Virus record (IMG/VR): IMGVR_UViG_3300028844_006119 | Location: 64,001 to 128,000 of that record | Length of the DNA stretch: 64,000 nt | Source: a virus | Reading direction: 5' to 3' (one strand) | Shown here: piece after piece, positions 14,711 through 60,062 of the stretch | Layout: every line of letters starts with the position of its first letter | Numbering within the stretch: the first letter of the stretch is position 1 | The notes under the pieces: model-generated | Databases searched by the model: none | Seen by the model: the letters and a program-made list of their open reading frames with translations, nothing else | Told to the model about the DNA's origin: nothing | Position numbers and translations under genes: made by a program

Positions 14711-14717
14711 TTATGAC
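14711..14717 (-). promoter_or_regulatory. GTCATAA candidate phage promoter
   Basis: Repeated motif, 32 nt upstream of the start at 14679. Confidence 0.6.
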
Positions 14718-26600: not shown

Positions 26601-26944
26601 ACAAAGAGCTGAAGAAGTTGGGACTCCCCACCATCCAGCACAAGCCTCTGCTGAAGCCTATGGACAAAGTCCCGCTTTCCGGTAAAGAAGACTGGATGGC
26701 GCGACTAAACTTCCAGAGGCTTAAGGACACCCTTATCGAGGGCGGGGCACAGAACTGGAAGTCAGATATCCAGGGTCACCCCATCCCAGGCCTGGCGCAT
26801 GGTGCGGCGTTTGGACTGCAAGCCCCAAAGACCGCAGCCATAAGCTCCCCTTTCCCCAAGCCCCCCAAACCTGTTAAACTTCCGGCACCTGTGCCTGCCG
26901 CCCCGCAGGGCATCTTCGGGTCCTTCTTTGGAGCAAAGTCATGA
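20606..26944 (+). CDS. DNA-directed RNA polymerase, fused beta/beta-prime single chain
   Basis: Beta motifs: TPE, DNGNRAMM, GYNFED, GDKLSGRHGNKG, PSRMNVGQ, YMLKLDH, GGQRIG. Beta-prime motifs: KRQDLSGRTV, RDPALH, NADFDGD (24806-24826), HGARKG bridge helix, RSPLHC..ICATCYG, GEPVTQMQMRTFHTGG. Confidence 0.97.
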   Translation: MANLAPGDAYRLLEERTKEAIKSHFPVEGRENRLELVDISTDEDASSASGKHHSYNHTSQTDAKLHDRTWGPNIVGTFRLVNMETGKVVDQGKRTLGQLPKITSRYSYIVEGNERQVDSVFRLNPGAYHVEADNGDLLAKWNVAAGSKVGSFKISIERKHPKKLGAMYLIVKSGTQSTRKIPAYGILSALGVSDPAMRKAWGESVFEVNRRISKPNDLLNFHEAVEKRRAGKDKYETPTLSEARKFAKEVFEGAEVNPDTMLATLGKKFTNISGDALLASSAKVVGISKGTAEPDDRQSLSNKRLFGMEDFIHEEISKGSSRFEMQKKIRNNLDRKGKISDILPAASVGYGRLITRKFKAAQLPTQTNPLQFVSNHTKTTILGQAFGGIKGDNVNLDRDKLINPSHLGLLDPLQTPENTSTGVSLHIPIGANKKGQQLYTKVLNVKTGKFENKNAAEMEKAVVAYPDQVKITRTKTGATVRPLHPDVVVYDSDRSTAKRPWKDVQYVLPNAKTLFSVSANMIPFVQNDNGNRAMMAAKHQEQAVSLKDREAPLVQAEFAGGVSFDQMIGKLNSTTASVAGTVSRITKDSVYIKGAAGKAVSHPIYNHHPLNGTKHMMHSTPVVKVGDKVKVGQLIADSNFTKDGTLSLGTNLRVGYLPYKGYNFEDGTVISETAAKKLVSTHLHIEEAEMFANVVVNRKLWRNFAGANKATAEVMSKLDEDGVIKEGAKVVPDDVLITRLVKAEMTRENQDVKRSLKKAIRDYKDAAVVWKHEYGGTVVRVVKTAKKIQVHIRTEQTMEPGDKLSGRHGNKGIITKILPDDMMPKDKSGKPVHVLMSPAGVPSRMNVGQVLETAASKIARKTGKSYKIENFDASVDYSQKIKDELKKHNLSDTEELFDPETGESLGQIFTGEQYMLKLDHQAEKKVSARSGGSGYAYRPTGEAISGSGIGKGGQRIGGLDTYALLAHGAKRNLMEMQTYKSDSEQARDVWIRVMQGQRPPPPKVPTSMEHFKKYLRATGVYAEETGGVYSLSPMTDAQTLGQSKGALVAADKTLVAKGMLTKEEKGGLFDRGKTGGMEGKFWSHIDMKTRMPNPMFETAIQSLLGLKKAEFEKLVSENGAVGKKSGFQIIEERLRAIKVPSELKKAEEELKTAKKADLNKKYKKVRYLRALKELKTSPVDAYTNQHLPVLPPILRPVKIGYDGTQMIDAANQYYAMIGQMTKQVEQGKKEGLPKADIFKREAQLYDLVRALRLNGMTQEGRELPSLMDKMTGSKPKHSFFQQGVLSKRQDLSGRTVVTPEPALKMDQVGIPVDMAMETYKPFVIRELWRRMGIAKSPGEARRMIKKNHPSAKKALERVITQRPVIMKRDPALHMFSTMAFKPVLVPGKSIKIHPLVCGGFNADFDGDTMAMYVPVTEEAAEEALEKMLPSKNLFSPTHGGLMLTPSQDAVLGIYQATKWGKKVPGILTEEQALQQLKNGKLKSDNVITVKGHKKPTTAGRLRINKTLPGSVKNDPELLYDPKFRMAKGAMKGFATRVAQSDPDEFSGMIDGWKELGFTLSYKNGSSFSLNDFHDGKTIRDNVLKKYKKEENVIRKSGISRKKKDQKIIALYQKAGEELKVIGQAHYKAKKDNRMWEWAESGARSNWGQFGQLVMGPMLVQNPSKEFVPVPLTTSFGEGLPISQYWAALHGARKGTLDRAAGTRDPGALTKELINTVIAYSVTDKDCGTSKGTLMSVMAKDIEGRYLAREVPLKSGDKLTRGTLVSSALLTRMKNSGPQKVLVRSPLHCQQATGICATCYGLNERGTLYKKGTNVGIIAGHALGEPVTQMQMRTFHTGGAGTDGLTDYFQQAKDLFKVPEKLRGAATLAEVTGRVDKIETDALGGKKVTIGGKLHVVPHSTPLLPKIRVGADVKKTDALSVGRKNPHDILRISNNIHAVRNHLTTELDSLYVETTGNERRRNIETVIRAMTDVAQVTESSEHENLLNGQMMSLSRIENRNKELKKLGLPTIQHKPLLKPMDKVPLSGKEDWMARLNFQRLKDTLIEGGAQNWKSDIQGHPIPGLAHGAAFGLQAPKTAAISSPFPKPPKPVKLPAPVPAAPQGIFGSFFGAKS

Positions 26945-27363
26945 ACAAGATCGCCGCATACGAAATCGCACTCGAGAGAATCGAACTTGAGAAGCGGGCT
27001 GACTCCCTGGTGGAGGCCTACGGCACCAGTGAGGGCTACATGCCGGGTGCCTACCTTCAGGCGTTTGATCAGATCGAGAAGGAAGCCGGAATCCAGGCTA
27101 TCGCAAATATCGGGAGCCGCCTCTCAACAGCGGCGCGAGGCACCATTAAAGGGATGATGGGGAGCGGCGGGGCAGTAGTCCGAAAGGGCGGGAAGATGCA
27201 GCTTAGCAGGGGAGCCGGACTTGGGGACACGGCTAAGTACTACGGAGCTCGAGGCGTGCAGCGCGCGGGAAGATTCGCCATGCAGAATCCCGGCGCGACT
27301 GCAGCTGTTGGCGGGGTCGGAGGTGTCGGAGCTGCCGGCCTCGGGTACAAGGCTCTGAAGTAG
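26941..27363 (+). CDS. Leader-bearing (MNKIAAYE) protein with cationic glycine-zipper cargo
   Basis: Acidic N-terminal part ending in EKEA, then a basic part ending GGVGGVGAAGLGYK. Confidence 0.7.
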   Translation: MNKIAAYEIALERIELEKRADSLVEAYGTSEGYMPGAYLQAFDQIEKEAGIQAIANIGSRLSTAARGTIKGMMGSGGAVVRKGGKMQLSRGAGLGDTAKYYGARGVQRAGRFAMQNPGATAAVGGVGGVGAAGLGYKALK

Positions 27364-38786: not shown

Positions 38787-39494
38787 TTATGCCGTGTTTT
38801 CTCCCCTTTTTAAGATCTTACGGAATAGGGCATCTGAGGTCGTAGAGGTCCCTACGTGCTGCCCCTCCAACTCCGGGGCGACGGCCCCCGCAAGCTCTCC
38901 GTAGATAAACGCGCTGATCCGCAACTTTCTTCGGGAGGATGCCAATATTTTGTGGAGCCCCTGCAGCTCCAGGGAAGCCGCATACTCTGGCCGAGTAACG
39001 ACAAACCCCATCATCATGGTGCAGAGCCGCAAGAATGTTCTCCAGGGGTGGATATCGGAGGTCTGCCCTGCCATCACTACGAAGTCATCCTCGGAGAGCC
39101 TGTCGAAGATCTCTACCCACGGAGCGATCTCCGTCGTCTCCCAGGCTCCTCTCTTCGTGTGGGCCACCGCAAACGTATACAGCTCTGAAGAGTAGGAGGG
39201 GCTCAGCCCCAGTGCCGCATCCTTCGCGTCTAAGATTCTAAGGACGACCTCCATGTGCGACTCCAGCCGGCGCACCTTAGAGCGCAGGCGAATCAGCTCC
39301 TGCCTGGAGACGACAGGGGACGCGGAGTCCATGTCTTCTTTCAGGTCCTGGACCTCCTCCGGGCGAAGGTATACGCTCCGGCCCTTCTTCTCCTTGGACA
39401 GCAAGCCTTTTTTGATATAGTTTCTGACGGTCCTGTCGGTTACTGAGAGGAACCTAGCTGCGTCCTGTAGCGTCATCATGTTATCGTGACTCAT
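38787..39494 (-). CDS. MerR/excisionase-type HTH DNA-binding protein
   Basis: MTLQDAARFLSVTDRTVRNYIKKGLL...VYLRPEEV, then a coiled coil. Confidence 0.8.
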   Translation of the reverse strand: MSHDNMMTLQDAARFLSVTDRTVRNYIKKGLLSKEKKGRSVYLRPEEVQDLKEDMDSASPVVSRQELIRLRSKVRRLESHMEVVLRILDAKDAALGLSPSYSSELYTFAVAHTKRGAWETTEIAPWVEIFDRLSEDDFVVMAGQTSDIHPWRTFLRLCTMMMGFVVTRPEYAASLELQGLHKILASSRRKLRISAFIYGELAGAVAPELEGQHVGTSTTSDALFRKILKRGENTA

Positions 39495-39512
39495 CCCTAC
39501 TCCGGGCGGTTC

Positions 39513-40394
39513 ATGTTTGGTTTAAGCATCACTAAAGACGATCTGAGAGAGCTGGCCTCCTGTGCCGCTACAGATTTTCTTGAGACTAAGACCCCGCTCA
39601 CCGAAGCGGTAGTCAAGGTCGCAAGTGGCTGCGAGAGGGATCTTACCTCAGAACACGTTCGCCGCATCTGTGAGATGACCTATCACGACGCGTATGAGAG
39701 ACTGCACAAGTCTGCCTCGGCTGCCGACAGGTACATTACTTTCGACCCGCCGGACGCGCCTACAGCAATTGGCATGCTTCGGGCTAAGAAGGTAGAATCC
39801 ATGCACAAGGCGGCCAGCTTTGCAGGAGCCGGAACCATGATCGATAAGACCGCAAGCGCCCCACACCGGACCAAGTTTCAGGCTGCGAATGCCTTTGACG
39901 CTCTGATGAAGACCGCCTCTGTCGAGGAAGAGGGTGTCGACCATCGATACTTGCACCGTATCCGTCAGGATCTCAAGGAGGCAGTGGCCTCGGTAAGCTC
40001 TGAGCACGCTGGCGTTGTGGTTGCGGCCGACCTGGAGATGGGCTCCCTGATCAAGGAGGCGTACTCCTCCTACCGAGATGGGTACTCCGTGGAGGAGATC
40101 CTGCACGCGTGCTTCTCCGGGGCGGACCTGTCCGAGATCCCTAGATCTGCCTCCGTCAAGGTGGCCTCCATCCTCTCTGCTGAGCTGGCAAGAAAGGCCG
40201 TGAAGACCGCAGGTCTCGGAATCAACAAGACTGCCTCTCTCGGGGAAGTCGATCCTACACACCCGCTGCCCTCCCGCTTTACGAAGGCGGCGCAGCTAGA
40301 GACTGAGCGGGCACATCTGGAGCTTACTCTGTCGGACCTCAAGCGGGACCGGGACGGTTTCCGTAAAAAGGTCGAGTCTCTGTATGACCGATAG
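39513..40394 (+). CDS. Head core/scaffold-like protein with about 10 K-x-A sites
   Basis: VKVAS, HKSAS, HKAAS, DKTAS, MKTAS, IKEAY, VKVAS, VKTAG, NKTAS, TKAAQ. Confidence 0.7.
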   Translation: MFGLSITKDDLRELASCAATDFLETKTPLTEAVVKVASGCERDLTSEHVRRICEMTYHDAYERLHKSASAADRYITFDPPDAPTAIGMLRAKKVESMHKAASFAGAGTMIDKTASAPHRTKFQAANAFDALMKTASVEEEGVDHRYLHRIRQDLKEAVASVSSEHAGVVVAADLEMGSLIKEAYSSYRDGYSVEEILHACFSGADLSEIPRSASVKVASILSAELARKAVKTAGLGINKTASLGEVDPTHPLPSRFTKAAQLETERAHLELTLSDLKRDRDGFRKKVESLYDR

Positions 40395-41218: not shown

Positions 41219-43192
41219 TTGGACAAGTACGCGCTATACCCCGGAAAGGCTGCTGACGGCCGGCCCAGAGTTCACCTGGTTGAGCCGGGTACTGGGTATG
41301 GTATGGCCAGTACTGACGGAGTCACCAAGACCGCGTCGGGAGAGCACCTTCCGGAAGTCATGGAGCTTATTGAGTCGATCGAGGCGCAGCCCGGAAGGCT
41401 GTACTTGGTCAACTCAGCTCTGGGTGCTGGGGAGAACGTTGGGTTCAATCTTCGAGGTGACTGGTTCACTGAGAAGGGCCTGAATCACACTCCTCCCGGA
41501 TTCGAGCAGATCCCGGTGTGGGATATCGAAGCGCGGAGAAAAGCCGCAAACATCACAGAGGCTGTGCCTCGGTGGGGGTCTTTGGCGTGGGGCTACCCTA
41601 CGTTCTACAACGCGCATAGATTCCGGCACCACGTCAACAAGGACCCAAACAAAGCCTACGGATTCATTCTGGGGGCTTTTTGGGATGACCGTATGAAGCG
41701 GGTCATCCTGGTGTCTGAGCTGATTAAGACCATGTGCGCCAAGATGGGGGCTCTTGATCTGTACAACCGGATCCAGGGTGGGGACTTTCCAGACTCCAGC
41801 ATGGGCAGCAAGGTCCCGTACGACCGATGCGCTATTTGTAACCACCATGCCCGCACACCAATGCAGTATTGTGAGCATGTCCGTAAGGGAGCTTCTCCTC
41901 CCTATGGAATGAAGTCCATGCTCCCGGACGGGCGTATCTGCGGTGTTTACAACGACTACCCGAGATTCTTCGACGATTCATTTGTGTTTGTCGGGGCCGA
42001 GCGATCTGCGAAGGTGATGTCGGATGTCACGAATCAGGTCTCGGGGAGAAACGCGTACTCCCAGAAGATCTACCCGTTCTCGCGCCCCATCCAGAAGATT
42101 GCTTCTGCAGCCGGGGTAGCGGATGTAACTCCTATCTCTGATGCTCCGTCTCCGCAGACGCAGAAGCCGAACATCCCGGACTTTGTTTTAGAGGAAAAAC
42201 TTACTCGGGCTGTCCAGCTGATTCCCGTAAGCACCTCTGCTGAGCGAGAGACGCTTAGATTCTTCATGCAAGAGCGCCTAGCGGAGGAAAGAGTCCGTGC
42301 GGGGACAATGTCCTCCACTGAGATGCAGATGTGGAAGGACCTCTCGCGGAACGTATTACTGAGGCAGTACGGGGTCTCCCCAGAGCAGATGGTCCACCTA
42401 AAGGTACTGTTCAACACCCGAGCAAATCAGGTACTTGGGATTACTAAGGTTGCGGAGATGCCCAAGTGGGCAGAGATTCTGAAGAGAATCCCCGCCCCCT
42501 CTCCGGAGCACATGAGCATCGTGCGTAGAGAGGAGAAGTGCCTCCCCGAGATTCCTAGAGAAATCCTGGACGAAATCGCAGATGCTCCTGGGCCAAATCT
42601 CCGTGCTGCAGCACGGATGGGCATCGTGGCCCGTCCCAATGAGTTCCAGTACATCATGCTGCGGCAAAGAGACCCGGACTTAGCGAGTAGACTCCACACG
42701 AATAGAGTGGTATTTCGCCCTACTTCCCTTCGTAGGGAGACATCAGCGTTCAATACGGGCTATGTCCCTCGCGACACTATGCACTCCATCATCCATAAGT
42801 TGGCACCTCTTATAGCCTCACGCTCCTTTGCGCCTTCGGCTATTAGAGCGCGGATCATTAAGATCACGCCCATGCCTAAGATCGCAGAGTTCTCAGAGAC
42901 CGAGAACTTGGATGAGGTCTCAGAGCTATACAATCAGTATCGCCTGGGGCTTATGCTATCTCCTACAGACCTCACGGCAGTGACCGTGCCCTCTGTTTTC
43001 TCCGATAGAATCGATGACGATGTGAAAATTGCCGGTGATTCTGTTAGTCTTTCTGCCCTAATGACGAGCCTTGCCTATTGGCCCGGTTTACAGTTAGGAT
43101 TAAACTCGGCTGAGGGGTCCTCCTCCGAAGACGCCACCCACTCTCAACCCCATATTGGAGAAATCCATCATGTCACTCCTTACGGAGCTTGA
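41219..43192 (+). CDS. Prohead (capsid maturation) protease
   Basis: NLRGDWF, FRHH, DSSMG followed by CAIC..YCEH, FFDDSFVFVGAE; lies upstream of the scaffold and capsid genes; carries its own KTAS/KIAS sites. Confidence 0.7.
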   Translation: MDKYALYPGKAADGRPRVHLVEPGTGYGMASTDGVTKTASGEHLPEVMELIESIEAQPGRLYLVNSALGAGENVGFNLRGDWFTEKGLNHTPPGFEQIPVWDIEARRKAANITEAVPRWGSLAWGYPTFYNAHRFRHHVNKDPNKAYGFILGAFWDDRMKRVILVSELIKTMCAKMGALDLYNRIQGGDFPDSSMGSKVPYDRCAICNHHARTPMQYCEHVRKGASPPYGMKSMLPDGRICGVYNDYPRFFDDSFVFVGAERSAKVMSDVTNQVSGRNAYSQKIYPFSRPIQKIASAAGVADVTPISDAPSPQTQKPNIPDFVLEEKLTRAVQLIPVSTSAERETLRFFMQERLAEERVRAGTMSSTEMQMWKDLSRNVLLRQYGVSPEQMVHLKVLFNTRANQVLGITKVAEMPKWAEILKRIPAPSPEHMSIVRREEKCLPEIPREILDEIADAPGPNLRAAARMGIVARPNEFQYIMLRQRDPDLASRLHTNRVVFRPTSLRRETSAFNTGYVPRDTMHSIIHKLAPLIASRSFAPSAIRARIIKITPMPKIAEFSETENLDEVSELYNQYRLGLMLSPTDLTAVTVPSVFSDRIDDDVKIAGDSVSLSALMTSLAYWPGLQLGLNSAEGSSSEDATHSQPHIGEIHHVTPYGA

Positions 43193-44123
43193 ATCACGGG
43201 GCGTCACAGCTGAGGATCTTGAGAAAGCGGCATCTGTCCGTTTATTTGAGAAGGCTGCTGCCGCCGAAGACGTGGATCTCGGCTCACTTGATGAAAATCA
43301 GGTAGAAGACCTCTACGTCACATTCCTTTCCAACCAGTCCAATGATGACTACACAAAAGAGGCTTCCGCCATGAACGACGAAATCGTTGACCTTTTCGAA
43401 AAGACCGCTGCAGCCGAGGGCATTGACCTCGACGACATGGCGGACCACGAGCTTGCTGAGCTCTACAACCACTACGTTGAGAACGTTCTGCCCGAGCAGG
43501 TCGAAGAGTACGAGAAGGGTGCTTCGTACGAGGTCGACGAGGCCACCGAGAAGCTCGCTGAGGCCGAGATTCTCGGTCGCCACATGGCGCGTGCCTACAT
43601 GGATGAGTTCGACAAGGAGGCTGCGAGCGCAGCAGCGGCCGGTGCCAGACTGGACGCTGCTGCGGCCGAGGCCGGACGATGGGGCCAGTCGGGCAAGGTC
43701 GAGGCGCAGAACGCCGCGAACCGTGCCAAGGAATCGATTGGACGAGGCTACGAGTCTGCCAAGGCGAAGGGCAAGGCTGGCTATGAAGCTGGTGTCCGTG
43801 GTGCTAAGGCCACTGGTGCCGCAGTTGCTTCCGGTGCTCGGTCCTACGGCAATGCTATGACTGGTAAGCAGTTGCGAGAGGCTGTCTCCACCATGCGTAA
43901 GCAGAAGGGTGGATATCGATCTTCCGCAATGGGCCGCGGTAAGGCCCTTCGTGGCGGTGCCAAGACGCTAGCCGCATGGGGCGCAACCGGTGCAGCTGGC
44001 TACGGCGCCAAGAAGGGCTACGACAGGATGACCAAGAAGTCCTCGATTGACGAGATCATTGAGGACCGCGCCAACGAGCTTCTCGGAGAGTTCCTCTTCG
44101 AGAGCGGTGTCGAGCTGGACTGA
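43170..44123 (+). CDS. Acidic scaffold-like protein with internal repeat and an embedded cationic cassette
   Basis: LFEKAAAAEDVDL / LFEKTAAAEGIDL repeat; basic Gly/Ala segment between KEA and KKS. Confidence 0.7.
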   Translation: MSLLTELESRGVTAEDLEKAASVRLFEKAAAAEDVDLGSLDENQVEDLYVTFLSNQSNDDYTKEASAMNDEIVDLFEKTAAAEGIDLDDMADHELAELYNHYVENVLPEQVEEYEKGASYEVDEATEKLAEAEILGRHMARAYMDEFDKEAASAAAAGARLDAAAAEAGRWGQSGKVEAQNAANRAKESIGRGYESAKAKGKAGYEAGVRGAKATGAAVASGARSYGNAMTGKQLREAVSTMRKQKGGYRSSAMGRGKALRGGAKTLAAWGATGAAGYGAKKGYDRMTKKSSIDEIIEDRANELLGEFLFESGVELD

Positions 44124-44125
44124 GA

Positions 44126-44413
44126 GTGGAAATGCCTGCCAACACAGACATCATGAGATTCTTCTCAGACGAGATCTGTAAGTTGGCAGGCATGCCCGCA
44201 CTCAAGGTTCCGGGCATGGGCAGTAAGGGACAACTATCTTCATTGATGGCCCGACCTGCCCATGCCCAGGCCGGTAACTTCGCAAAAGCACAAAAAGCAC
44301 TGAAAACACCCACCACAGGAAGCGCCCCGAAAGGGATTAATCATGCTTCGTTAAAGGCGGTGGGCTCCACGGGATCTGTATCTTTACCGCCACCTCCCGT
44401 GAAAACCGTCTAA
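44126..44413 (+). CDS. Leader-bearing (FFSDEICKLA) basic peptide
   Basis: Shared leader; Lys/Pro-rich cargo without acidic residues. Confidence 0.65.
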   Translation: MEMPANTDIMRFFSDEICKLAGMPALKVPGMGSKGQLSSLMARPAHAQAGNFAKAQKALKTPTTGSAPKGINHASLKAVGSTGSVSLPPPPVKTV

Positions 44414-44437
44414 ACTTCCCACTTTTAGGGTGACCCA

Positions 44438-45178
44438 ATGAGCAACTACCGAAGCATGATTGATGACGCACTCCAGAGTGCAAGAGCCCGTATCGATGGC
44501 GGCAGCGCAGATCTGATGAAGACCGCTTCTGCCCCCGAGAACAGCATGGTCAAGGAGGCGTCCGAACTCGCAGACGCCCTTGAGTATGTTGCCCACGCCT
44601 CTACGAACACTGGCTCCGCCGCTGACGCTGTTCGTGGCGAAATGGTTCGTTCCTTCTTTAAGAGCGCGGCAGGCGCTCCTGCCCAGAGCAGCACATCTGT
44701 TCAGGGCACCCAGGCACACGCCCCCACTGGAAAGAAGATCCAGGCAAAGGGCCAGTCTGTCGGAGGCTCGGCTCCTCAGTCGGAGACCACTCCCGCCCCC
44801 GCAGATGGCCAGAAGCCGCTGCTCGAGTCCTTCAAGCAGGCAGAGGGTCAGTCTCTCTACGACATCCTGATGGCCAGTAAGACCGCAGGCAAGGGTGGCC
44901 CCTCCGAGAGCACGGCTACTGAGTCTGCTCAGGGCATTCCTTCTGGTAACGAGAACTCCAACCGTCAGGCGATTCTCGAGAGCAACGAGGCTCCGGTCAA
45001 CGCGACCCGCCGTCAGGCTAAGGCTCCCGTCCGTAAGCGCCTCGCGGAGGCGTTTGCCCACACGAACAGCACCACTGGCGACTCCACGCTGAATGCAATG
45101 TTCCCTCAGGCCGCAGGTAAGGGATCCCACAAGATCGCCTCCGTGAAAGATCGGCTGAGCGCAATGGCTGGTGAGTAA
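44438..45178 (+). CDS. Scaffold/core-like low-complexity protein
   Basis: MKTAS, VKEAS, FKSAA, SKTAG, HKIAS. Confidence 0.7.
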   Translation: MSNYRSMIDDALQSARARIDGGSADLMKTASAPENSMVKEASELADALEYVAHASTNTGSAADAVRGEMVRSFFKSAAGAPAQSSTSVQGTQAHAPTGKKIQAKGQSVGGSAPQSETTPAPADGQKPLLESFKQAEGQSLYDILMASKTAGKGGPSESTATESAQGIPSGNENSNRQAILESNEAPVNATRRQAKAPVRKRLAEAFAHTNSTTGDSTLNAMFPQAAGKGSHKIASVKDRLSAMAGE

Positions 45179-45485
45179 TATGTCCTCTATTAGAGACAGG
45201 CTTGAGAAGATCGCTGCTGCCAAGGACGATAAGGGTGACCTCGCCCTTTATGTCTCTAAGAAGCTCTCGGAGAAAAGAGCATCCGTTGCGGAGTACTCTG
45301 TGCTCTTCGATAAGGTTGCCTCCGGTGACCTAGGAGAGCACACCCGTCAGGCCCTACTCGGCATCTGCGACACGATCCCAGAACCCACTACTCTTTCGGA
45401 AAAGACAGCATCTGTGTATGATGTTATGGACTTTTCTGAGAATGACGCAAGAAGAGCTAGACTAGATCAGCTCCTAAAGCGTTAA
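45171..45485 (+). CDS. Small core-like protein
   Basis: EKIAA, EKRAS, DKVAS, EKTAS in 104 aa. Confidence 0.7.
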   Translation: MSNMSSIRDRLEKIAAAKDDKGDLALYVSKKLSEKRASVAEYSVLFDKVASGDLGEHTRQALLGICDTIPEPTTLSEKTASVYDVMDFSENDARRARLDQLLKR

Positions 45486-45509: not shown

Positions 45510-45875
45510 ATGATGAAGATCGGGAATGCACAGCTTGCTGCTGTCTCCGCAAAGGGGGCGGCGACTATCCGTACTCTGGTGGAGAAAGTCGCTAGCTTGG
45601 AGACGGAGAACGTCTCCCTCCGAACAAAACTAGCTTCTATTGCGCGCGACTCTCAGATCTCTGAGCTTGCACGCGAGATGGAAGACAAGAGCCTTAATGT
45701 TGACATGACTTTCGAAGAAAAGGTTGCACACCTGCGGGGTCAGGCAAACCTAGAGAACGTCACTGAAGCAGTAAAGATGGCGAGCGCGGGCCATGTCCGA
45801 CTTGCCGATGTTTCCGACCATCCCGGGACGGGAGCGATCGACCCACTCACCTCTTTCTGCCTTTCCGGCGAATAA
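45510..45875 (+). CDS. Coiled-coil scaffold-like protein
   Basis: EKVAS, TKLAS, EKVAH, VKMAS. Confidence 0.7.
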   Translation: MMKIGNAQLAAVSAKGAATIRTLVEKVASLETENVSLRTKLASIARDSQISELAREMEDKSLNVDMTFEEKVAHLRGQANLENVTEAVKMASAGHVRLADVSDHPGTGAIDPLTSFCLSGE

Positions 45876-46531: not shown

Positions 46532-47668
46532 ATGGATTATTCCGCTGAAATGGTGAATTCGGGCTTCATTGAGCGCCTCGAGACTGAGGGTTCCACGAAG
46601 ACCGCCGCCGCCTCTCTCAACTACATCAAGGATCGCCTGCGCGAGTCCAGCTTTGCCGACATGATCGTTCCGAACGAGCGTGTTGTGCGTGGCGACTTGC
46701 AGCGCAGCACCCAGCACGACACCCTCGTGAAGATCGTCGACATCGAGCCGGGTTCCCGCGCGATGGCCGTCAACTTCCGTGGTCAGCCTACCGCTGAGTA
46801 CGTGTCTGGTAAGCGCTACGCAATCGGCTTCTTCACCATCTCGAGCCTCAAGTTCGAAATCGTGGAGCAGGAGCTGATGGCATACGAGATGCCCGTCACC
46901 CGCATCATCGAGGAGAACAGCCTCAAGGACATGGTCGAGGTCAAGGATCGCGAGTTCCTGAACCACGTCGAGTCCTGCATCGATGCAATGCAGAGCGAGG
47001 GTGGTATCACCACCTTCAACACCTCGACTTGGACAGCTGGTTCCCAGTTCTCGAAGATCAAGGGCTCTCTGGCTCTGCAGCAGACCACCGACAACTTCAA
47101 CGTCCAGGCAATCCAGCGGACTGACATTGTGGAGCTCAAGAAGCTTCTCAAGCGTCAGGTGCTTGATAGCTCCGGTAACGTGGTTCGTCAGGGTCGTCTT
47201 CGTCCCGCGCTGATGCTCATGACTGAGTCCGACGCTGACGACTTCGATCAGTGGACTCACGAGGACTACGGTGATCGTCTCCAGAGCGAAACCGCTCTCG
47301 ACGGCTACACCTACAACAAGGTCCTCGGTCTGCGCATCGTCCGTACCATCAAGAACGACATCCTGCGTGAGGGCAACGTTTACGTGTTCACCGCACCGGA
47401 GTTCTTCGGCCGGAACTACACGCTGAACGATGTCAAGTTCTACATCGATAAGATTGCGAACCGCATCTTCTGGCAGGCATGGATGGACGTGGGCATGGGC
47501 TTCGGCAACATCGCCTCGGTCGTCAAGCTTGAGCTCTACTCCGGTAGTGTCAGTGGCACGCCGGATTCCGGCTTTGCTGCAGCGATGCCGACTGACGAAG
47601 AGAACCTGGGTGGCCAGAACAACAAGGCCGCTGATGGTCTGACCTACCCGAGCCTCAACATCTTCTAG
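46532..47668 (+). CDS. Major capsid protein (HK97-fold expected)
   Basis: 378 aa; follows the protease/scaffold genes; AGGAG RBS; strongly biased codons; followed by a terminator. Confidence 0.75.
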   Translation: MDYSAEMVNSGFIERLETEGSTKTAAASLNYIKDRLRESSFADMIVPNERVVRGDLQRSTQHDTLVKIVDIEPGSRAMAVNFRGQPTAEYVSGKRYAIGFFTISSLKFEIVEQELMAYEMPVTRIIEENSLKDMVEVKDREFLNHVESCIDAMQSEGGITTFNTSTWTAGSQFSKIKGSLALQQTTDNFNVQAIQRTDIVELKKLLKRQVLDSSGNVVRQGRLRPALMLMTESDADDFDQWTHEDYGDRLQSETALDGYTYNKVLGLRIVRTIKNDILREGNVYVFTAPEFFGRNYTLNDVKFYIDKIANRIFWQAWMDVGMGFGNIASVVKLELYSGSVSGTPDSGFAAAMPTDEENLGGQNNKAADGLTYPSLNIF

Positions 47669-47698
47669 TCTATCGCTAGAAAGAGTTGACTCTTTTCA

Positions 47699-47739
47699 GG
47701 GCCCCGGTTCCCATAAGGGGGCTGGGGCCCTTTCGTTTT
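47699..47739 (+). terminator. Intrinsic terminator after the capsid gene
   Basis: GGGCCCCGGTTCCC-ATAA-GGGGGCTGGGGCCC followed by TTTCGTTTT. Confidence 0.8.
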
Positions 47740-47758: not shown

Positions 47759-48325
47759 ATGAAACTGATGATCAGAAACACATCTAGGGATAAGACGACC
47801 GCTGCCATGCGAAAAGCGCGGCCTGGAGATGTCCAGCCAAACCCTACGATCAAGAAGGTCAGACTTCCTCCCGGCGGATCCCTTACCGTTGATTCCAATG
47901 ATCTGAGCAGCCTCGACGCACGGCTGATTCAGAAGCTTATGGGCTGTGGATGCCTCCGCACATTTGCGATGACATCCTCGGGGCCTATGCGCGCTATCGA
48001 TGCCGATGAGATCGGAGAGCTGTGTGATCTTTCGATCCCTGTTCCCCCTCCGGCGCCTGCGCCCGCACCCACGATTCCTGAGCCCGAGCCCGCAGTCGAA
48101 GAGATTGTGGCGGCCCCCGAGCCTGAACCGGAACCCGAACCGGAACCCGAACCGGAGCCAGAGGAAGACCTCGGCCCCGAAGAGGCTCCATACCTAGAAG
48201 CGGAGCTAAAGGCGATGAAAAACGTTGACCTTCGCTCCATCCTTTCTGACATGGACTTCGGCCGGACTACCGGCATGAACAAGTCCTCCCTAGTCAACGC
48301 AATCCTCGAGATGCAGGAGTCTTAA
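47759..48325 (+). CDS. Protein with (PE)n linker and C-terminal Rho-N/HeH-like domain
   Basis: PEPEPEPE tract; LKAMKNVDLRSIL...MNKSSLVNAIL. Confidence 0.7.
   Translation: MKLMIRNTSRDKTTAAMRKARPGDVQPNPTIKKVRLPPGGSLTVDSNDLSSLDARLIQKLMGCGCLRTFAMTSSGPMRAIDADEIGELCDLSIPVPPPAPAPAPTIPEPEPAVEEIVAAPEPEPEPEPEPEPEPEEDLGPEEAPYLEAELKAMKNVDLRSILSDMDFGRTTGMNKSSLVNAILEMQES
48116..48162 (+). repeat. Coding hexamer tandem repeat (Pro-Glu)n
   Basis: GAACCG/GAACCC units. Confidence 0.75.
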
Positions 48326-58882: not shown

Positions 58883-59127
58883 TGGATCTCGAAGTCTTAC
58901 ATTTCTTTTCTGATGAGGTGGAGAAGCTCGCAGCGAAGAGTCGGCACAACTACTACATGCGGAATCGTAATCAGATTCTGCAGAAGCAGCGTCAGTACCG
59001 AGCCAAGAACAAGGCCGGTATTGCACGCAGGCAGAAGATGTACCGGCGGAAGGTAAAGATGGGCGCGCATAGACAGCGTAAGCGCATCTCTACGGGCCAC
59101 TCCTACACCTACGGCGGGTACAGATAG
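58879..59127 (+). CDS. Leader-bearing (MDLEVLHFFSDEVEKLA) protamine-like peptide
   Basis: Cargo is very rich in Arg/Lys/Tyr and has no acidic residue. Confidence 0.7.
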   Translation: MMDLEVLHFFSDEVEKLAAKSRHNYYMRNRNQILQKQRQYRAKNKAGIARRQKMYRRKVKMGAHRQRKRISTGHSYTYGGYR

Positions 59128-60062
59128 TGGATGTCCCTGACCTATTCGACCAGAAGAGGAAGAAGGTCTCTGGGCTAAAGATGCCCAGGCAGTTTACTCC
59201 GCGGTTACCCGGCGCATCCACTAAGGGGCAGGCTCCCATAAACCCGTTCTCAGGAAATAAGATGAAGGTCGCATCCCTGTCTTCTTTCCGAGAAGCTCAG
59301 CTCATAAAGACTGCCTCTGCGGAAGACGCTCATCTCTACTTTGAGATGTGCAAGCTTGCGGATACTGGGGATGAGCTTAAGATTCGCATGTTCCTAGCGC
59401 AGCATCCTGAGATGGAGAAAGACGCTGGGATCATCGGCCACGGCTTCAGGCTGCTGAGTAAGGCCCTGGGAGGGGCAGGTAAGACTTTCAACAGTAGCCG
59501 CTTGACTGCCGCCGCAGGCAAAGCTGAATACGCAGCAGCAAAAAGGTTCAGCGGGGCGGCGGTAAATCCTAGAAACCTAGGGCAGGCCGCTAAGGAAACC
59601 CAGTACGCCTCTCTAGCGGGAGCTTCTGGTAAGCGGGGAGGGGAGCTCACCGCTGCCGCAAAAAACATCCGAGAAGCCAAAGCCGTCAAATCTCAGGTAA
59701 ATGCTGGGCAGTTTGCTGCACCTGCTGCGGCTCCTGCTCCCTCTAACGTCGTCCCTGGCGCCCCTTCCGCGTTTAAGGGACAGCCGGACAAATATGTAAA
59801 GGCATATGCGGACGTCGGGGATGAGACAGCTAAGAGGACCCTGGCCGGCAGAGTAAGTGAGAAGCAGCTCGAAGCTGTCGCGAAGACCGCTCCTACTCCT
59901 AAGACGGAGCTGCTCTCGAACAGTACTCTCGGCAAGGCCATCGTGGGCACGGCCGCCGTAGGCGGGGTCGGGGCTGTGGGCTACGGAGGCTACAAGGGCG
60001 TTCAGCGCGGAAAGGCGCAGAACCTGCAGCAGCAGGCTCGCGGGTTCAACTACGGGATGTAG
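59127..60062 (+). CDS. Putative internal virion protein with K-x-A sites and C-terminal glycine zipper
   Basis: MKVAS, IKTAS, CKLAD, EKDAG; AAVGGVGAVGYGGYK. Confidence 0.7.
   Translation: MDVPDLFDQKRKKVSGLKMPRQFTPRLPGASTKGQAPINPFSGNKMKVASLSSFREAQLIKTASAEDAHLYFEMCKLADTGDELKIRMFLAQHPEMEKDAGIIGHGFRLLSKALGGAGKTFNSSRLTAAAGKAEYAAAKRFSGAAVNPRNLGQAAKETQYASLAGASGKRGGELTAAAKNIREAKAVKSQVNAGQFAAPAAAPAPSNVVPGAPSAFKGQPDKYVKAYADVGDETAKRTLAGRVSEKQLEAVAKTAPTPKTELLSNSTLGKAIVGTAAVGGVGAVGYGGYKGVQRGKAQNLQQQARGFNYGM

What the first reader, a model, noticed from the sequence alone, without database searches (positions are those of the whole stretch)
43623..44042. Cationic Gly/Ala cassette nested between cleavage-like sites inside an acidic scaffold (polyprotein design)
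Seen: the gene at 43170 is strongly acidic up to FDKEA. It then carries about 140 aa that become basic and Gly/Ala-rich and end in WGATGAAGYGAKKGYDRMTKKS, before returning to acidic SIDEIIEDRA. The cassette ending resembles stand-alone cargos (GGVGAAGLGYK at 26941, GGVGAVGYGGYK at 59127). Inference: the cargo rides into the prohead inside the scaffold and is excised at maturation. Because the scaffold is degraded anyway, such sites would be tolerant insertion points.
Basis: partly seen in the sequence, partly recalled or inferred. Interest (0 to 1): 0.78.

Follow-up and report, generated by a model that had tools for sequence, protein, structure and literature searches.

The report
Basic peptide nested in phage scaffold
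An uncultured 142-kb phage makes an acidic scaffold-like head protein that carries a strongly basic, fast-changing middle piece, bounded on both sides by the probable cutting signal of the phage's own head protease; the piece is probably cut free and kept inside the capsid, though no cutting has been shown.

Summary
Gene 43170-44123 (317 aa) has three parts:
- aa 1-151: acidic, net -31, ends FDKEA.
- aa 152-291: basic and Gly/Ala-rich, net +19, pI 10.7.
- aa 292-317: a 26-aa acidic tail.

The gene lies directly after a protease whose model best matches T4 gp21 and the herpesvirus assemblins.

About 190 homologue clusters keep this layout. Both borders carry a conserved Lys-x-(Ala/Ser) site. 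Among close relatives, identity falls from 70-100% to 10-24% exactly at residue 151.

The cassette behaves as a separable module:
- It is replaced in near-identical backbones.
- It is tandemly duplicated with its own sites.
- It is missing in some relatives.
- It is a separate adjacent gene in the cultured phages Vibrio D69 and Salmonella Arash.

K-x-A[SAG] is 20-fold enriched in the N domains. K-x-A and K-x-G are specifically depleted inside cassettes, while R-x-A and A-x-K are not. That is the footprint expected of a piece that must survive the protease. Flank charge also compensates cassette charge (rho -0.7).

The "polyprotein" reading is therefore largely supported by comparison. Two corrections apply. 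The cassette is a near-universal module of the family, not an opportunistic insertion. Its likeness to the genes at 26941 and 59127 is compositional.

Cleavage, retention in the virion and function remain inferred. Other notes of this scan flagged the same K-x-A system in this genome.

The parts
41219..43192 (+). Probable prohead maturation protease, 657 aa. The protease domain spans about aa 45-290. The C-terminal extension carries further K-x-A sites.
   Evidence: PHROG 18299 'head maturation protease', E = 3e-5. H137, H138 and S194 are invariant in 24 homologues. The best PDB matches of the AF2 model are T4 gp21 (Z 5.3, 132 residues aligned) followed by many herpesvirus assemblins (Z 3.2-4.2). 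K-x-A[SAG] occurs 4 times against 0.53 expected.
43170..44123 (+). The three-part precursor gene: 317 aa, 33.8 kDa, pI 4.7. It overlaps the end of the protease gene by 23 nt.
   Evidence: There are 139 word-indexed homologues. About 190 cluster representatives match the N domain alone. The position directly after the protease is kept in 40 IMG/VR loci.
43170..43622 (+). Acidic N domain, aa 1-151, net -31. It holds two helical-hairpin repeats (LFEK[AT]AAAE-G[IV]DL...) followed by the nearly invariant helix EKLAEAEILGRHMARAYMDE. Five internal K-x-A[SA] sites lie at aa 19-21, 28-30, 63-65, 78-80 and 116-118.
   Evidence: Identity is 70-100% per 10-residue block among 24 close homologues. K-x-A[SAG] is 20-fold enriched in family N domains, 419 observed against 20.5 expected. 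AF2 pLDDT reaches 94 (block means 51-94; about 90 in the repeat helices) and the domain is all helical.
43614..43622 (+). N|M border site K149-E150-A151 within ...AYMDEFDKEA|A. This is an internal copy of the leader-type motif (aromatic-x-D-E-hydrophobic-x-K-x-A) found at the N-termini of other head-region ORFs.
   Evidence: In 91 homologues P7 is Asp in 75, P6 is Glu in 80, and P5 is M, L, F or I in 75. Lys at P3 and Ala at P1 are fixed by the anchor. The motif aligns with AFSDEIEKLA (40384) and FSDEVEKLA (58879).
43623..44042 (+). The basic Gly/Ala-rich cassette: aa 152-291, 14.0 kDa, pI 10.7, net +19. It contains no internal K-x-[AS][SAG] site.
   Evidence: Identity to close homologues is 10-24%, against 70-100% in the N domain. 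Family cassette lengths run from 81 to 273 aa and the mean net charge is +16. K-x-A and K-x-G are depleted in the family's cassettes.
43962..44018 (+). Glycine-zipper-like end of the cassette (KTLAAWGATGAAGYGAKKG). It is the only part of the cassette with recognisable conservation.
   Evidence: Block identity is 0.35-0.49 at aa 261-280. A similar G/A-rich stretch followed by Y-G-x-K-K closes the cassette in most homologues. It is not hydrophobic enough for a membrane helix: the best 19-residue Kyte-Doolittle mean is 0.39 here, the family median is 1.02, and only 1 of 91 reaches 1.6. AF2 pLDDT is below 50.
44034..44042 (+). M|C border site K289-K290-S291, followed by S292.
   Evidence: In 91 homologues the last K-x-[AS][SAG] lies 18-59 aa from the C-terminus. 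P1 is Ser in 46 and Ala in 45. P1' is Ser in 67. P5 is mostly M, F or L.
44043..44120 (+). Acidic C-terminal tail, aa 292-317, 3.0 kDa, net -8. It is an amphipathic helix ending in a Gly-aromatic motif.
   Evidence: The pattern (R)A-x-E-[IML]-L-x-x-x-G-[YFV] persists to the most distant homologues. A301, L309 and G313 are at least 90% conserved. AF2 predicts a helix at 293-311.
44126..44413 (+). Next gene: a 95-aa basic protein that starts with the portable leader ...FFSDEICKLA|G.
   Evidence: It is kept in part of the related loci.
46532..47668 (+). Major capsid protein. It has a K23-T24-A25|A26 site near its N-terminus (nt 46598-46606).
   Evidence: It is 25% identical over 88% of its length to the capsid-position proteins of Vibrio phages D69, D181 and D148. 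The Arash and D69 capsid proteins carry K-E-A|G at the equivalent place. Identity in related loci is 50-86%.
26941..27363 (+). Stand-alone relative in design only: an acidic 49-aa N-terminus ending ...FDQIEKEA|G, then a basic G/A-rich body ending in a glycine zipper.
   Evidence: There is no significant profile match to the cassette end.
59127..60062 (+). Stand-alone relative in design: ...PEMEKDA|G, then a basic G/A-rich body ending GGVGAVGYGGYK.
   Evidence: The profile match to the family's cassette end is marginal, E = 7e-4.

Best explanation
The gene encodes a precursor of the prohead core built from three modules.
1. A conserved acidic helical N domain. It acts as a scaffold-like assembly and targeting part and as a charge mask.
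2. An exchangeable basic Gly/Ala-rich cassette.
3. A short conserved acidic tail, which probably docks the precursor to the shell or the core.

Proposed mechanism. After the prohead is built, the protease encoded by the neighbouring gene (T4 gp21 / herpesvirus assemblin type) cuts after hydrophobic-x-Lys-x-(Ala/Ser). This chops the N domain into six acidic peptides of 1-4.3 kDa and removes the 3-kDa tail. These small pieces can leave the shell. The 14-kDa, pI 10.7 cassette has no internal site and stays inside. There it most likely binds the packaged DNA, and it may leave the capsid with the DNA at infection.

Shown here: the layout and its conservation; the sharp conservation cliff at the border; the conserved border sites; enrichment of the site in the flanks and Lys-specific avoidance of it in cassettes; charge compensation between flanks and cassette; and natural replacement, duplication, loss and split-gene forms of the cassette.

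Inferred: that the motif is the protease's site, that it is cut, that the cassette is retained, and what the cassette does.
For: Layout and position
- The three-part layout is confirmed in the window and in 91 anchored homologues.
- The gene always follows the protease gene.

Protease identity
- PHROG head maturation protease, E = 3e-5.
- His137, His138 and Ser194 are invariant.
- The best structural matches are T4 gp21 (Z 5.3) and the assemblins.

The site
- By composition-preserving shuffles, K-x-A[SAG] is enriched almost only in head-module proteins of the 142-kb genome.
- It is 20-fold enriched in family N domains.
- It is conserved at both cassette borders.
- It occurs at the same N-terminal place of the capsid protein in this phage, Arash and D69.

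Avoidance inside cassettes
- In 32 non-redundant cassette types, K-x-A has an observed/expected ratio of 0.67 (0 of 300 shuffles as low) and K-x-G a ratio of 0.44.
- R-x-A, R-x-G, A-x-K and G-x-K all lie near 1.0.

Modularity
- Identity drops from 0.7-1.0 to 0.1-0.24 at residue 151.
- 26 pairs have N domains at least 85% identical but cassettes under 15% identical.
- Tandem duplicated cassettes, each ending EKRS or EKQS and separated by an acidic spacer with its own K-x-A sites, occur in L014, L016 and L010.
- Cassette-less forms exist.
- In Vibrio phage D69 and Salmonella phage Arash an all-acidic multi-site protein is followed by a separate basic glycine-zipper gene that begins MFKSA|S or MHKES|S.

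Other support
- Arash gp224, the basic protein, was detected in virion preparations.
- Flank charge tracks cassette charge (Spearman -0.67 to -0.70). Total net charge is held at -23.5 +/- 5.7.
Against: - No proteomic or biochemical evidence of cutting exists for this phage or any close relative.
- The Arash virion list also contains the acidic gp223 and many non-structural enzymes, and has no peptide-level data. It therefore cannot separate retained from lost parts.
- Sequence similarity between this family and the Arash and D69 proteins is not significant. That comparison rests on synteny and design.
- AF2 draws one continuous helix (aa 92-168) across the N|M site, and the model has no compact fold (pTM 0.31). 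The site is therefore not predicted to lie in an exposed loop.
- The structural match of the protease is modest (Z 5.3; Foldseek E = 0.07).
- Some distant homologues lack the cassette, so it is not essential to the backbone's role.
Confidence: 0.55

Rival explanations
1. Ordinary scaffold and nothing more. The whole protein, basic middle included, serves only prohead assembly, for example by acidic-basic self-association of neighbouring molecules. All of it is degraded or expelled, and no piece has a later role.
For: - Position, acidity and the all-helical elongated model fit a scaffold.
- Charge compensation between flanks and middle would also fit a charge-patterned self-assembling core.
- The helix is predicted to run across the N|M border.
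- Cassette-less homologues show that the backbone can work alone.
Against: - If the middle were meant to be cleared, sites inside it would help. Instead K-x-A and K-x-G are specifically avoided in K-, A- and G-rich cassettes. This leaves a 14-kDa piece, whereas the flanks are cut into pieces of 4.3 kDa or less.
- The cassette occurs as a separate gene with its own short leader in D69 and Arash. The Arash product is listed in virions.
- Cassettes are swapped and duplicated like payloads.
Confidence: 0.2
2. The released cassette is a membrane-active ejection protein. Its glycine zipper oligomerises into a pore or conduit in the host envelope during genome and protein delivery. It is not a DNA-binding filler.
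For: - The only conserved part of the cassette is the G/A-rich zipper flanked by Lys/Arg.
- Minimal cassettes consist of little else (L010).
- Many other head-region proteins of this genome carry similar zippers behind a leader.
- This phage group ships large proteins, such as an RNA polymerase, in the virion (leads; Arash proteome).
Against: - Hydropathy is far below that of a membrane helix: 0.39 here, family median 1.02, and only 1 of 91 reaches 1.6.
- No Pfam glycine-zipper family matches any of 76 members.
- The copy number implied by a scaffold-like precursor would be very high for a pore.
Confidence: 0.15
3. No processing at all. K-x-A is a structural feature of Ala-rich acidic helices and of internally duplicated repeats. 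The protein sits uncut in the head as an internal protein.
For: - Part of the enrichment in the N domain comes from homologous repeats that each contain LFEK-x-A.
- No cleavage data exist.
- The sites lie in predicted helices.
Against: - The same motif is enriched in unrelated head proteins but not in replication, tail or other genes.
- It sits at conserved positions at the capsid protein's N-terminus in phages only 25% identical.
- It ends a portable N-terminal leader on unrelated proteins.
- It is avoided in a Lys-specific and direction-specific way inside cassettes.
- A protease of the right fold is encoded next door.
Confidence: 0.1

Closest known systems
Phage T4 prohead core: gp22, gp67 and gp68, and the internal proteins IPI-III and Alt with the capsid targeting sequence, all cut by gp21 (review PMC9026906)
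   Same: - Acidic core proteins are cut at many short motifs into small peptides that leave the head.
- Internal proteins are targeted by a short leader that ends in the protease site. They stay with the DNA and are hypervariable between related phages.
- The protease has the same fold class.
   Different: - In T4 the scaffold and the internal proteins are separate genes. Here the payload is nested inside the scaffold-like protein, between an N-terminal propiece and a C-terminal tail.
- The predicted motif is hydrophobic-x-K-x-(A/S), not L/I-x-E.
- There is no sequence similarity.
Ejection (E) proteins gp53 and gp54 of the giant phage SPN3US and their phiKZ / 201phi2-1 homologues, processed by gp245 (PMC10052503)
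   Same: - Abundant head-internal proteins are made with long N-terminal propeptides of 111-254 aa.
- The propeptides carry several protease motifs and are cut into fragments.
- The mature C-terminal part stays in the head.
   Different: - The motif is A-x-E.
- No C-terminal tail is removed from these substrates.
- The mature parts are folded proteins, not basic low-complexity peptides.
- There is no evidence there of cassette exchange or tandem cassettes.
Herpesvirus assembly protein (pre-VP22a / UL26.5 type) and assemblin (from my own knowledge of the field, not tested here)
   Same: - The scaffold's C-terminal ~25 residues dock to the major capsid protein and are removed by the protease at the maturational site.
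- The protease cuts between Ala and Ser.
- Here a conserved 26-aa tail follows K-K-S|S, most other predicted sites are A|S or A|A, and the protease model aligns with assemblins.
   Different: - The herpesvirus scaffold contains no basic payload.
- Binding of this tail to the capsid protein is untested.
- The Lys at P3 has no herpesvirus counterpart.
Cationic peptides made with anionic propieces: adenovirus pVII and pre-mu cut by the adenoviral protease, and defensin-type precursors (from my own knowledge, analogy only)
   Same: - A strongly basic product is kept neutralised or masked in a precursor and freed by a dedicated protease.
- In adenovirus the products condense the genome inside the capsid.
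- Here flank charge tracks cassette charge.
   Different: The proteins, proteases and hosts are unrelated. DNA binding by the cassette is not shown.
Salmonella phage Arash gp223 + gp224 and Vibrio phage D69 VPHD69_0271 + 0272
   Same: - The head-module order is the same: protease, then an acidic protein with several to ten K-x-A[SA] sites (5 in Arash gp223, 10 in D69), then a basic glycine-zipper protein, then the capsid protein with K-E-A|G.
- gp223 and gp224 are listed in the Arash virion proteome.
   Different: - The acidic and basic parts are two genes there, and one gene here.
- Sequence similarity to the window's protein is not significant.
- The capsid proteins are only 25% identical.

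Membership tests
Phage scaffolding / prohead core protein (functional class) | Encoded in the head module between the maturation protease and the major capsid protein | tested here: met
   The gene starts 23 nt before the end of the protease gene. The capsid gene lies 2.4 kb downstream. The order is kept in the related loci.
Phage scaffolding / prohead core protein (functional class) | Elongated, mostly helical, acidic protein without a compact fold | tested here: met
   The AF2 model is all helical with pTM 0.31. Whole-protein pI is 4.7. It has no PDB fold match.
Phage scaffolding / prohead core protein (functional class) | Present in proheads, absent or degraded in mature heads, and required for shell assembly | not testable with these tools
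   This needs proteomics and genetics of a cultured relative. The Arash list has no peptide-level data.
T4-type protease-processed internal head proteins (leader / CTS design) | The payload is preceded by a targeting peptide that ends in the head protease's recognition motif | tested here: met
   At the sequence level only. The junction ...AYMDEFDKEA|A matches the portable leader x-F-S-D-E-[IV]-x-K-x-A of other ORFs. It is nearly invariant in 91 homologues.
T4-type protease-processed internal head proteins (leader / CTS design) | A prohead protease of the gp21 / assemblin fold is encoded by the phage | tested here: inconclusive
   The top structural matches are T4 gp21 (Z 5.3, rmsd 4.3, 132 aligned) and the assemblins (Z 3.2-4.2). 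The PHROG match has E = 3e-5, and His, His and Ser are invariant. The scores are modest.
T4-type protease-processed internal head proteins (leader / CTS design) | Cleavage at the motif and retention of the mature part in the virion | not testable with these tools
   Only indirect evidence exists: Lys-specific avoidance of K-x-A and K-x-G inside cassettes, and the listing of Arash gp224 in virions.
Herpesvirus-type scaffold with a removable C-terminal capsid-docking tail | A short conserved C-terminal peptide lies directly after a protease site | tested here: met
   The tail is 26 aa here (18-59 aa in the family) and follows K-x-[SA]|[SGA]. The amphipathic motif is conserved to the most distant homologues.
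Herpesvirus-type scaffold with a removable C-terminal capsid-docking tail | The tail binds the major capsid protein | not tested
   No complex prediction or binding assay was available.
Transmembrane glycine-zipper domains (Pfam Gly-zipper families) | Match to a Gly-zipper profile and a membrane-grade hydrophobic segment | tested here: not met
   No Gly-zipper family is matched by any of 76 members at E <= 0.1. The best 19-residue hydropathy is 0.39 here and reaches 1.6 in only 1 of 91.
Viral polyprotein | Several independently functional products are released from one chain by a viral protease | tested here: inconclusive
   The modular behaviour fits: replacement, tandem duplication with own sites, loss, and a split-gene form. 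Release and independent function are not shown.

The most novel reading that the evidence does not exclude
This phage clade uses its scaffold-like core protein as a built-in, exchangeable cargo slot. Any basic payload placed between the leader-type site (...D-E-x-x-K-x-A|) and the tail site (K-x-S|S) is carried into every prohead at scaffold copy number. It is charge-masked by the flanks and then freed by the protease to stay with the DNA. Evolution swaps, duplicates and deletes these payloads. This would be a natural high-copy capsid-loading system distinct from the T4 leader-only design. It would also give these phages a fast-evolving DNA-condensing or host-directed peptide.
Probability: 0.35. 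Interest if true: 0.75.

Novelty: new variant of a known kind. Interest (0 to 1): 0.57.

Why it matters
Protease-processed head cores are known from T4 and the phiKZ-like giants. In those, the scaffold and the retained internal proteins are separate genes. Here a large, environmentally widespread and almost unstudied phage clade fuses the two. This is the same clade that carries a virion RNA polymerase, and its cultured outliers are Salmonella phage Arash and Vibrio phage D69.

The comparison gives unusually clear sequence-only footprints:
- a conservation cliff at a conserved site;
- Lys-specific avoidance of the site inside the payload;
- charge compensation between payload and flanks;
- tandem payloads, each with its own sites.

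If confirmed, the finding would do three things.
- It would define the specificity of a new prohead protease, hydrophobic-x-K-x-A/S, close to the Ala|Ser rule of the herpesvirus assemblins.
- It would explain how a strongly basic peptide can be loaded at high copy into a capsid.
- It would point to a natural slot for loading foreign polypeptides into phage heads.

It also helps annotation. Hundreds of 'hypothetical proteins' in marine viral contigs can be read as precursor = propiece + payload + tail.

Tried and rejected
Contigs of the closest homologues (N domain 93-95% identical, cassette unrelated) could not be fetched. Replacement by recombination could therefore not be told apart from very fast divergence at the DNA level.
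- Pfam and PHROGs give nothing meaningful for the protein or its parts. The DUF2960, PAR1 and LepB_GAP_N hits are sub-threshold matches to the acidic repeats.
- tblastn of the whole protein against 50,697 phage records found no match.
- Foldseek of the AF2 model against the PDB found nothing.
- The ESM Atlas look-alikes of the cassette scored below 0.9. They are unnamed small viral proteins, so they are leads only.
- A profile of the family against the Arash and D69 proteins gave only insignificant scores.
- A profile of cassette ends does not find the 26941 protein, so homology to it is rejected.
- A profile of the N-domain end finds the portable leaders only at non-significant scores. This is a short-motif resemblance.
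- The Arash supplement holds gene tables only, with no peptides.
- No tandem DNA repeats lie in 43000-44300. No promoter-like site lies on the + strand, and no Shine-Dalgarno sequence lies before Met144. Separate expression of the cassette from an internal start is therefore rejected.
- A classical transmembrane reading of the zipper is rejected on hydropathy.
- The - strand ORF 44384-45223 and the alternative-frame ORF 43387-43860 are taken as shadows of GC-rich coding sequence.
Full report
**1. What is there**

The window is bases 64001-128000 of a single 142,186-bp contig. The contig carries replication genes, a 2112-aa single-chain RNA polymerase and a head/tail module.

The finding lies in the + strand gene 43170-44123. 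Homologues start at the same MSLL..., so 43170 is the real start rather than the TTG at 43155.

- aa 1-151 are acidic: net -31, pI 4.05. They end ...AYMDEFDKEA.
- aa 152-291 (nt 43623-44042) are basic and 44% Gly+Ala: net +19, 14.0 kDa, pI 10.7. They end in the zipper-like WGATGAAGYGAKKGYDRMTKKS.
- aa 292-317 form an acidic 26-residue tail: net -8.

The two 'stand-alone' endings quoted from the ORFs at 26941 and 59127 are real. In both, the basic part follows EKEA|G or EKDA|G.

**2. Surroundings**

The upstream gene (41219-43192) is the probable head maturation protease.
- It matches PHROG 18299 at E = 3e-5.
- H137, H138 and S194 are invariant in 24 homologues.
- The best PDB matches of its AF2 model are T4 gp21 (Z 5.3, rmsd 4.3, 132 residues), followed by a long run of herpesvirus assemblins (Z 3.2-4.2). 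These scores are modest but coherent.

The capsid gene is 46532-47668. It is 25% identical to the capsid-position gene of Vibrio phages D69, D181 and D148. A strong terminator follows it.

**3. The Lys-x-Ala signal**

I used composition-preserving shuffles of every ORF of the genome. K-x-A[SAG] is significantly enriched (p <= 0.007) almost only in head-region proteins:

| ORF | observed | expected |
|---|---|---|
| 39486 | 8 | 0.8 |
| protease | 4 | 0.53 |
| this gene | 6 | 1.4 |
| 44438 | 5 | 1.0 |
| 45171 | 4 | 0.23 |
| 45510 | 4 | 0.28 |

Three further ORFs (at 14713, 30876 and the window's left edge) are also enriched.

The capsid protein has K23-T-A|A near its N-terminus. The Arash and D69 capsid proteins have K-E-A|G at the matching place, although the proteins are only 25% identical.

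Several unrelated small proteins start with a shared leader ...F-S-D-E-[IV]-x-K-x-A. The end of the N domain of our protein (A-Y-M-D-E-F-D-K-E-A) is an internal copy of that leader.

Reading the motif as the protease's site is an inference. No cleavage data exist.

**4. The family**

- A word-indexed search found 139 homologues.
- An exhaustive phmmer search with the N domain alone found 190 cluster representatives. Nearly all are 230-580 aa long.
- In 91 homologues with recognisable anchors, the N domain ends ...ILGRHMARAYMDE-[MLFI]-[DE]-K-x-A. The tail starts after K-x-[SA], followed by S, G or A.
- Mean net charges are -32, +16 and -7.6. Cassette length ranges from 81 to 273 aa.
- Among 24 close homologues, identity per 10-residue block is 0.70-1.00 up to residue 150. 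It is 0.10-0.24 from residue 151 on. It recovers partly only in the zipper (0.35-0.49) and the tail (0.35-0.49).
- N-domain identity and cassette identity are poorly coupled (Spearman 0.32). 26 pairs have N domains at least 85% identical but cassettes under 15% identical. One example is the window's protein against P0011: 92% identical in the N domain, no BLAST hit in the cassette.

**5. The cassette behaves as a module**

- *Duplication.* Tandem cassettes occur. Each ends in EKRS| or EKQS|, and an acidic spacer with its own K-x-A sites separates them (L014, L016; short zipper-only cassettes in L010). Three-cassette forms also exist.
- *Loss.* P0121, P0127, P0129, P0147, P0177, P0187, P0217 and P0221, and loci L024 and L039, go from the N domain straight to the tail elements.
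- *Split genes.* In Vibrio phage D69 and Salmonella phage Arash the protease gene is followed by an all-acidic protein with several to ten K-x-A[SA] sites (ten in D69, five in Arash gp223). Next comes a separate basic glycine-zipper gene that begins MFKSA|S or MHKES|S. That comparison rests on synteny and design, because profile scores are not significant.

**6. Footprints of selection**

K-x-A[SAG] is 20-fold enriched in family N domains, 419 observed against 20.5 expected.

Inside cassettes, which are rich in K, A and G, the motif is depleted. In 32 non-redundant cassette types:

| motif | observed/expected | note |
|---|---|---|
| K-x-A | 0.67 | z -3.7; 0 of 300 shuffles as low |
| K-x-G | 0.44 | z -5.4 |
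| R-x-A | 1.06 | control |
| R-x-G | 1.01 | control |
| A-x-K | 1.02 | control |
| G-x-K | 0.94 | control |

The depletion holds with local block shuffles. The window's cassette has no K-x-[AS][SAG] at all, despite 15 Lys, 36 Ala and 25 Gly.

If every predicted site is used, the products are six acidic peptides of 1.0-4.3 kDa, the intact 14-kDa cassette and a 3-kDa tail. This asymmetry is what one expects if the flanks are meant to be cleared and the cassette is meant to survive.

The flanks' charge also tracks the cassette's charge (Spearman -0.67 in 91 homologues, -0.70 in 32 non-redundant types). The precursor is held at -23.5 +/- 5.7 overall. The flanks therefore also act as a charge mask. 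This is reminiscent of anionic propieces of cationic peptides, which is an analogy from general knowledge.

**7. Structure**

- AF2 with 76 sequences gives mean pLDDT 74 and pTM 0.31, all helices.
- There are two confident helical hairpins in the N domain.
- One long helix (aa 92-168) runs through the N|M site.
- A helical first half of the cassette has pLDDT about 80.
- The zipper region is disordered (pLDDT below 50).
- The tail forms a helix at aa 293-311.
- No PDB fold match was found.

This fits an elongated scaffold-like protein. It neither supports nor excludes cutting at residue 151. The zipper is not hydrophobic enough to be a membrane helix, and no Pfam glycine-zipper family matches it.

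**8. What it most likely is and does**

Best reading (confidence 0.55): a prohead-core precursor in which an exchangeable basic payload is nested between two flanks. One is a scaffold-like, multiply cleavable acidic propiece. The other is a short docking tail. The payload is released by the neighbouring gp21/assemblin-type protease and kept in the head. Most likely it stays on the DNA, and possibly it is delivered with it.

Rivals:
- A plain scaffold whose basic middle only helps assembly (0.2).
- A membrane-active ejection peptide (0.15).
- No processing at all (0.1).

The only virion proteome of a relative (Arash) lists both the acidic gp223 (9 unique peptides) and the basic gp224 (8 unique peptides). 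It also lists many metabolic enzymes and gives no peptide-level data. It shows that the basic partner is particle-associated, but it cannot decide the fate of the acidic part.

**9. Comparison with what is known**

- *T4 core.* gp22, gp67 and gp68 are cut into fragments. The internal proteins carry a 10-residue capsid-targeting leader and are hypervariable (PMC9026906).
- *SPN3US / phiKZ E proteins.* They have 111-254-aa multi-site propeptides (PMC10052503).
- *Herpesvirus scaffold.* The removable C-terminal tail and the predicted Ala|Ser-type bond recall the herpesvirus scaffold and assemblin. This comes from my own knowledge and was not tested.

Three things are new:
- Scaffold-like propiece, payload and tail are fused in one chain.
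- The predicted motif is hydrophobic-x-K-x-A/S.
- The payload slot is evolutionarily plastic.

I file it as a new variant of a known kind. The cassette is present in nearly all family members and is charge-matched by its flanks, so it is an integral, if replaceable, module.

Other notes of this scan had already flagged the K-x-A signal, the portable leader, and a two-cassette relative in another genome. I re-tested the signal and the leader here.

**10. Limits**

The DNA of the closest homologues could not be examined for recombination break-points.
- All statements about cutting, retention and function are inferences from sequence comparison.

Noticed in passing
window 45510-45875 (+): A 121-aa coiled-coil protein with 4 K-x-A[SAG] sites against 0.28 expected. 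Its C-terminal motif ...DPLTSFCLSGE recurs in distant relatives: L017 ...DPLTSFCLGGE, Arash gp225 ...DPLLAFCLQ, D69 ...DALTEFLTS. It is better conserved (67-77% in close loci) than the gene under study and may be the main scaffold or a core protein.
   Followed up: partly
window 44126-44413 (+) and loci L018 12697-12930, L024 12094-13848: Small leader-bearing proteins end in a shared proline-rich tail (...SGSASPTPP...). In L024, whose scaffold-like protein lacks the basic cassette, the protein with this tail has grown to 584 aa and carries glycine zippers. The payloads may move between different leader/tail carriers.
   Followed up: no
window 41219-43192 (+), aa 290-657: The protease has a 370-aa C-terminal extension with further K-x-A sites (QKIA|S at aa 293-296, VKIA|G at aa 603-606). 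This suggests self-processing, as in T4 gp21 and SPN3US gp245.
   Followed up: no
window 39486-40394 (+): A 302-aa protein has the densest set of sites in the genome: 8 K-x-A[SAG] against 0.8 expected, mostly K-[TV]-A-S. Homologues occur in all related loci, and the Arash gp220 and D69 0268 positions are equivalent.
   Followed up: partly
window 46598-46606 (+): The capsid protein carries K23-T-A|A. The matching K-E-A|G in Arash and D69 suggests removal of a ~25-residue N-terminal propeptide across this whole clade.
   Followed up: partly
window 47698-47731 (+): A strong intrinsic-terminator-like hairpin (15 pairs, 11 G-C, then a T-run) lies directly after the capsid gene.
   Followed up: no
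window 44384-45223 (-): A 279-aa ORF lies on the opposite strand of the 44438-45178 gene. It is probably a shadow ORF of GC-rich coding sequence. The + strand gene has homologues in all related loci and 5 K-x-A sites.
   Followed up: partly
window 47759-48325 (+): A 188-aa protein has a Pro-Ala and (Pro-Glu)n low-complexity linker (PAPAPAP...EPEPEPEPEPEPEPE) directly downstream of the capsid gene's terminator.
   Followed up: no
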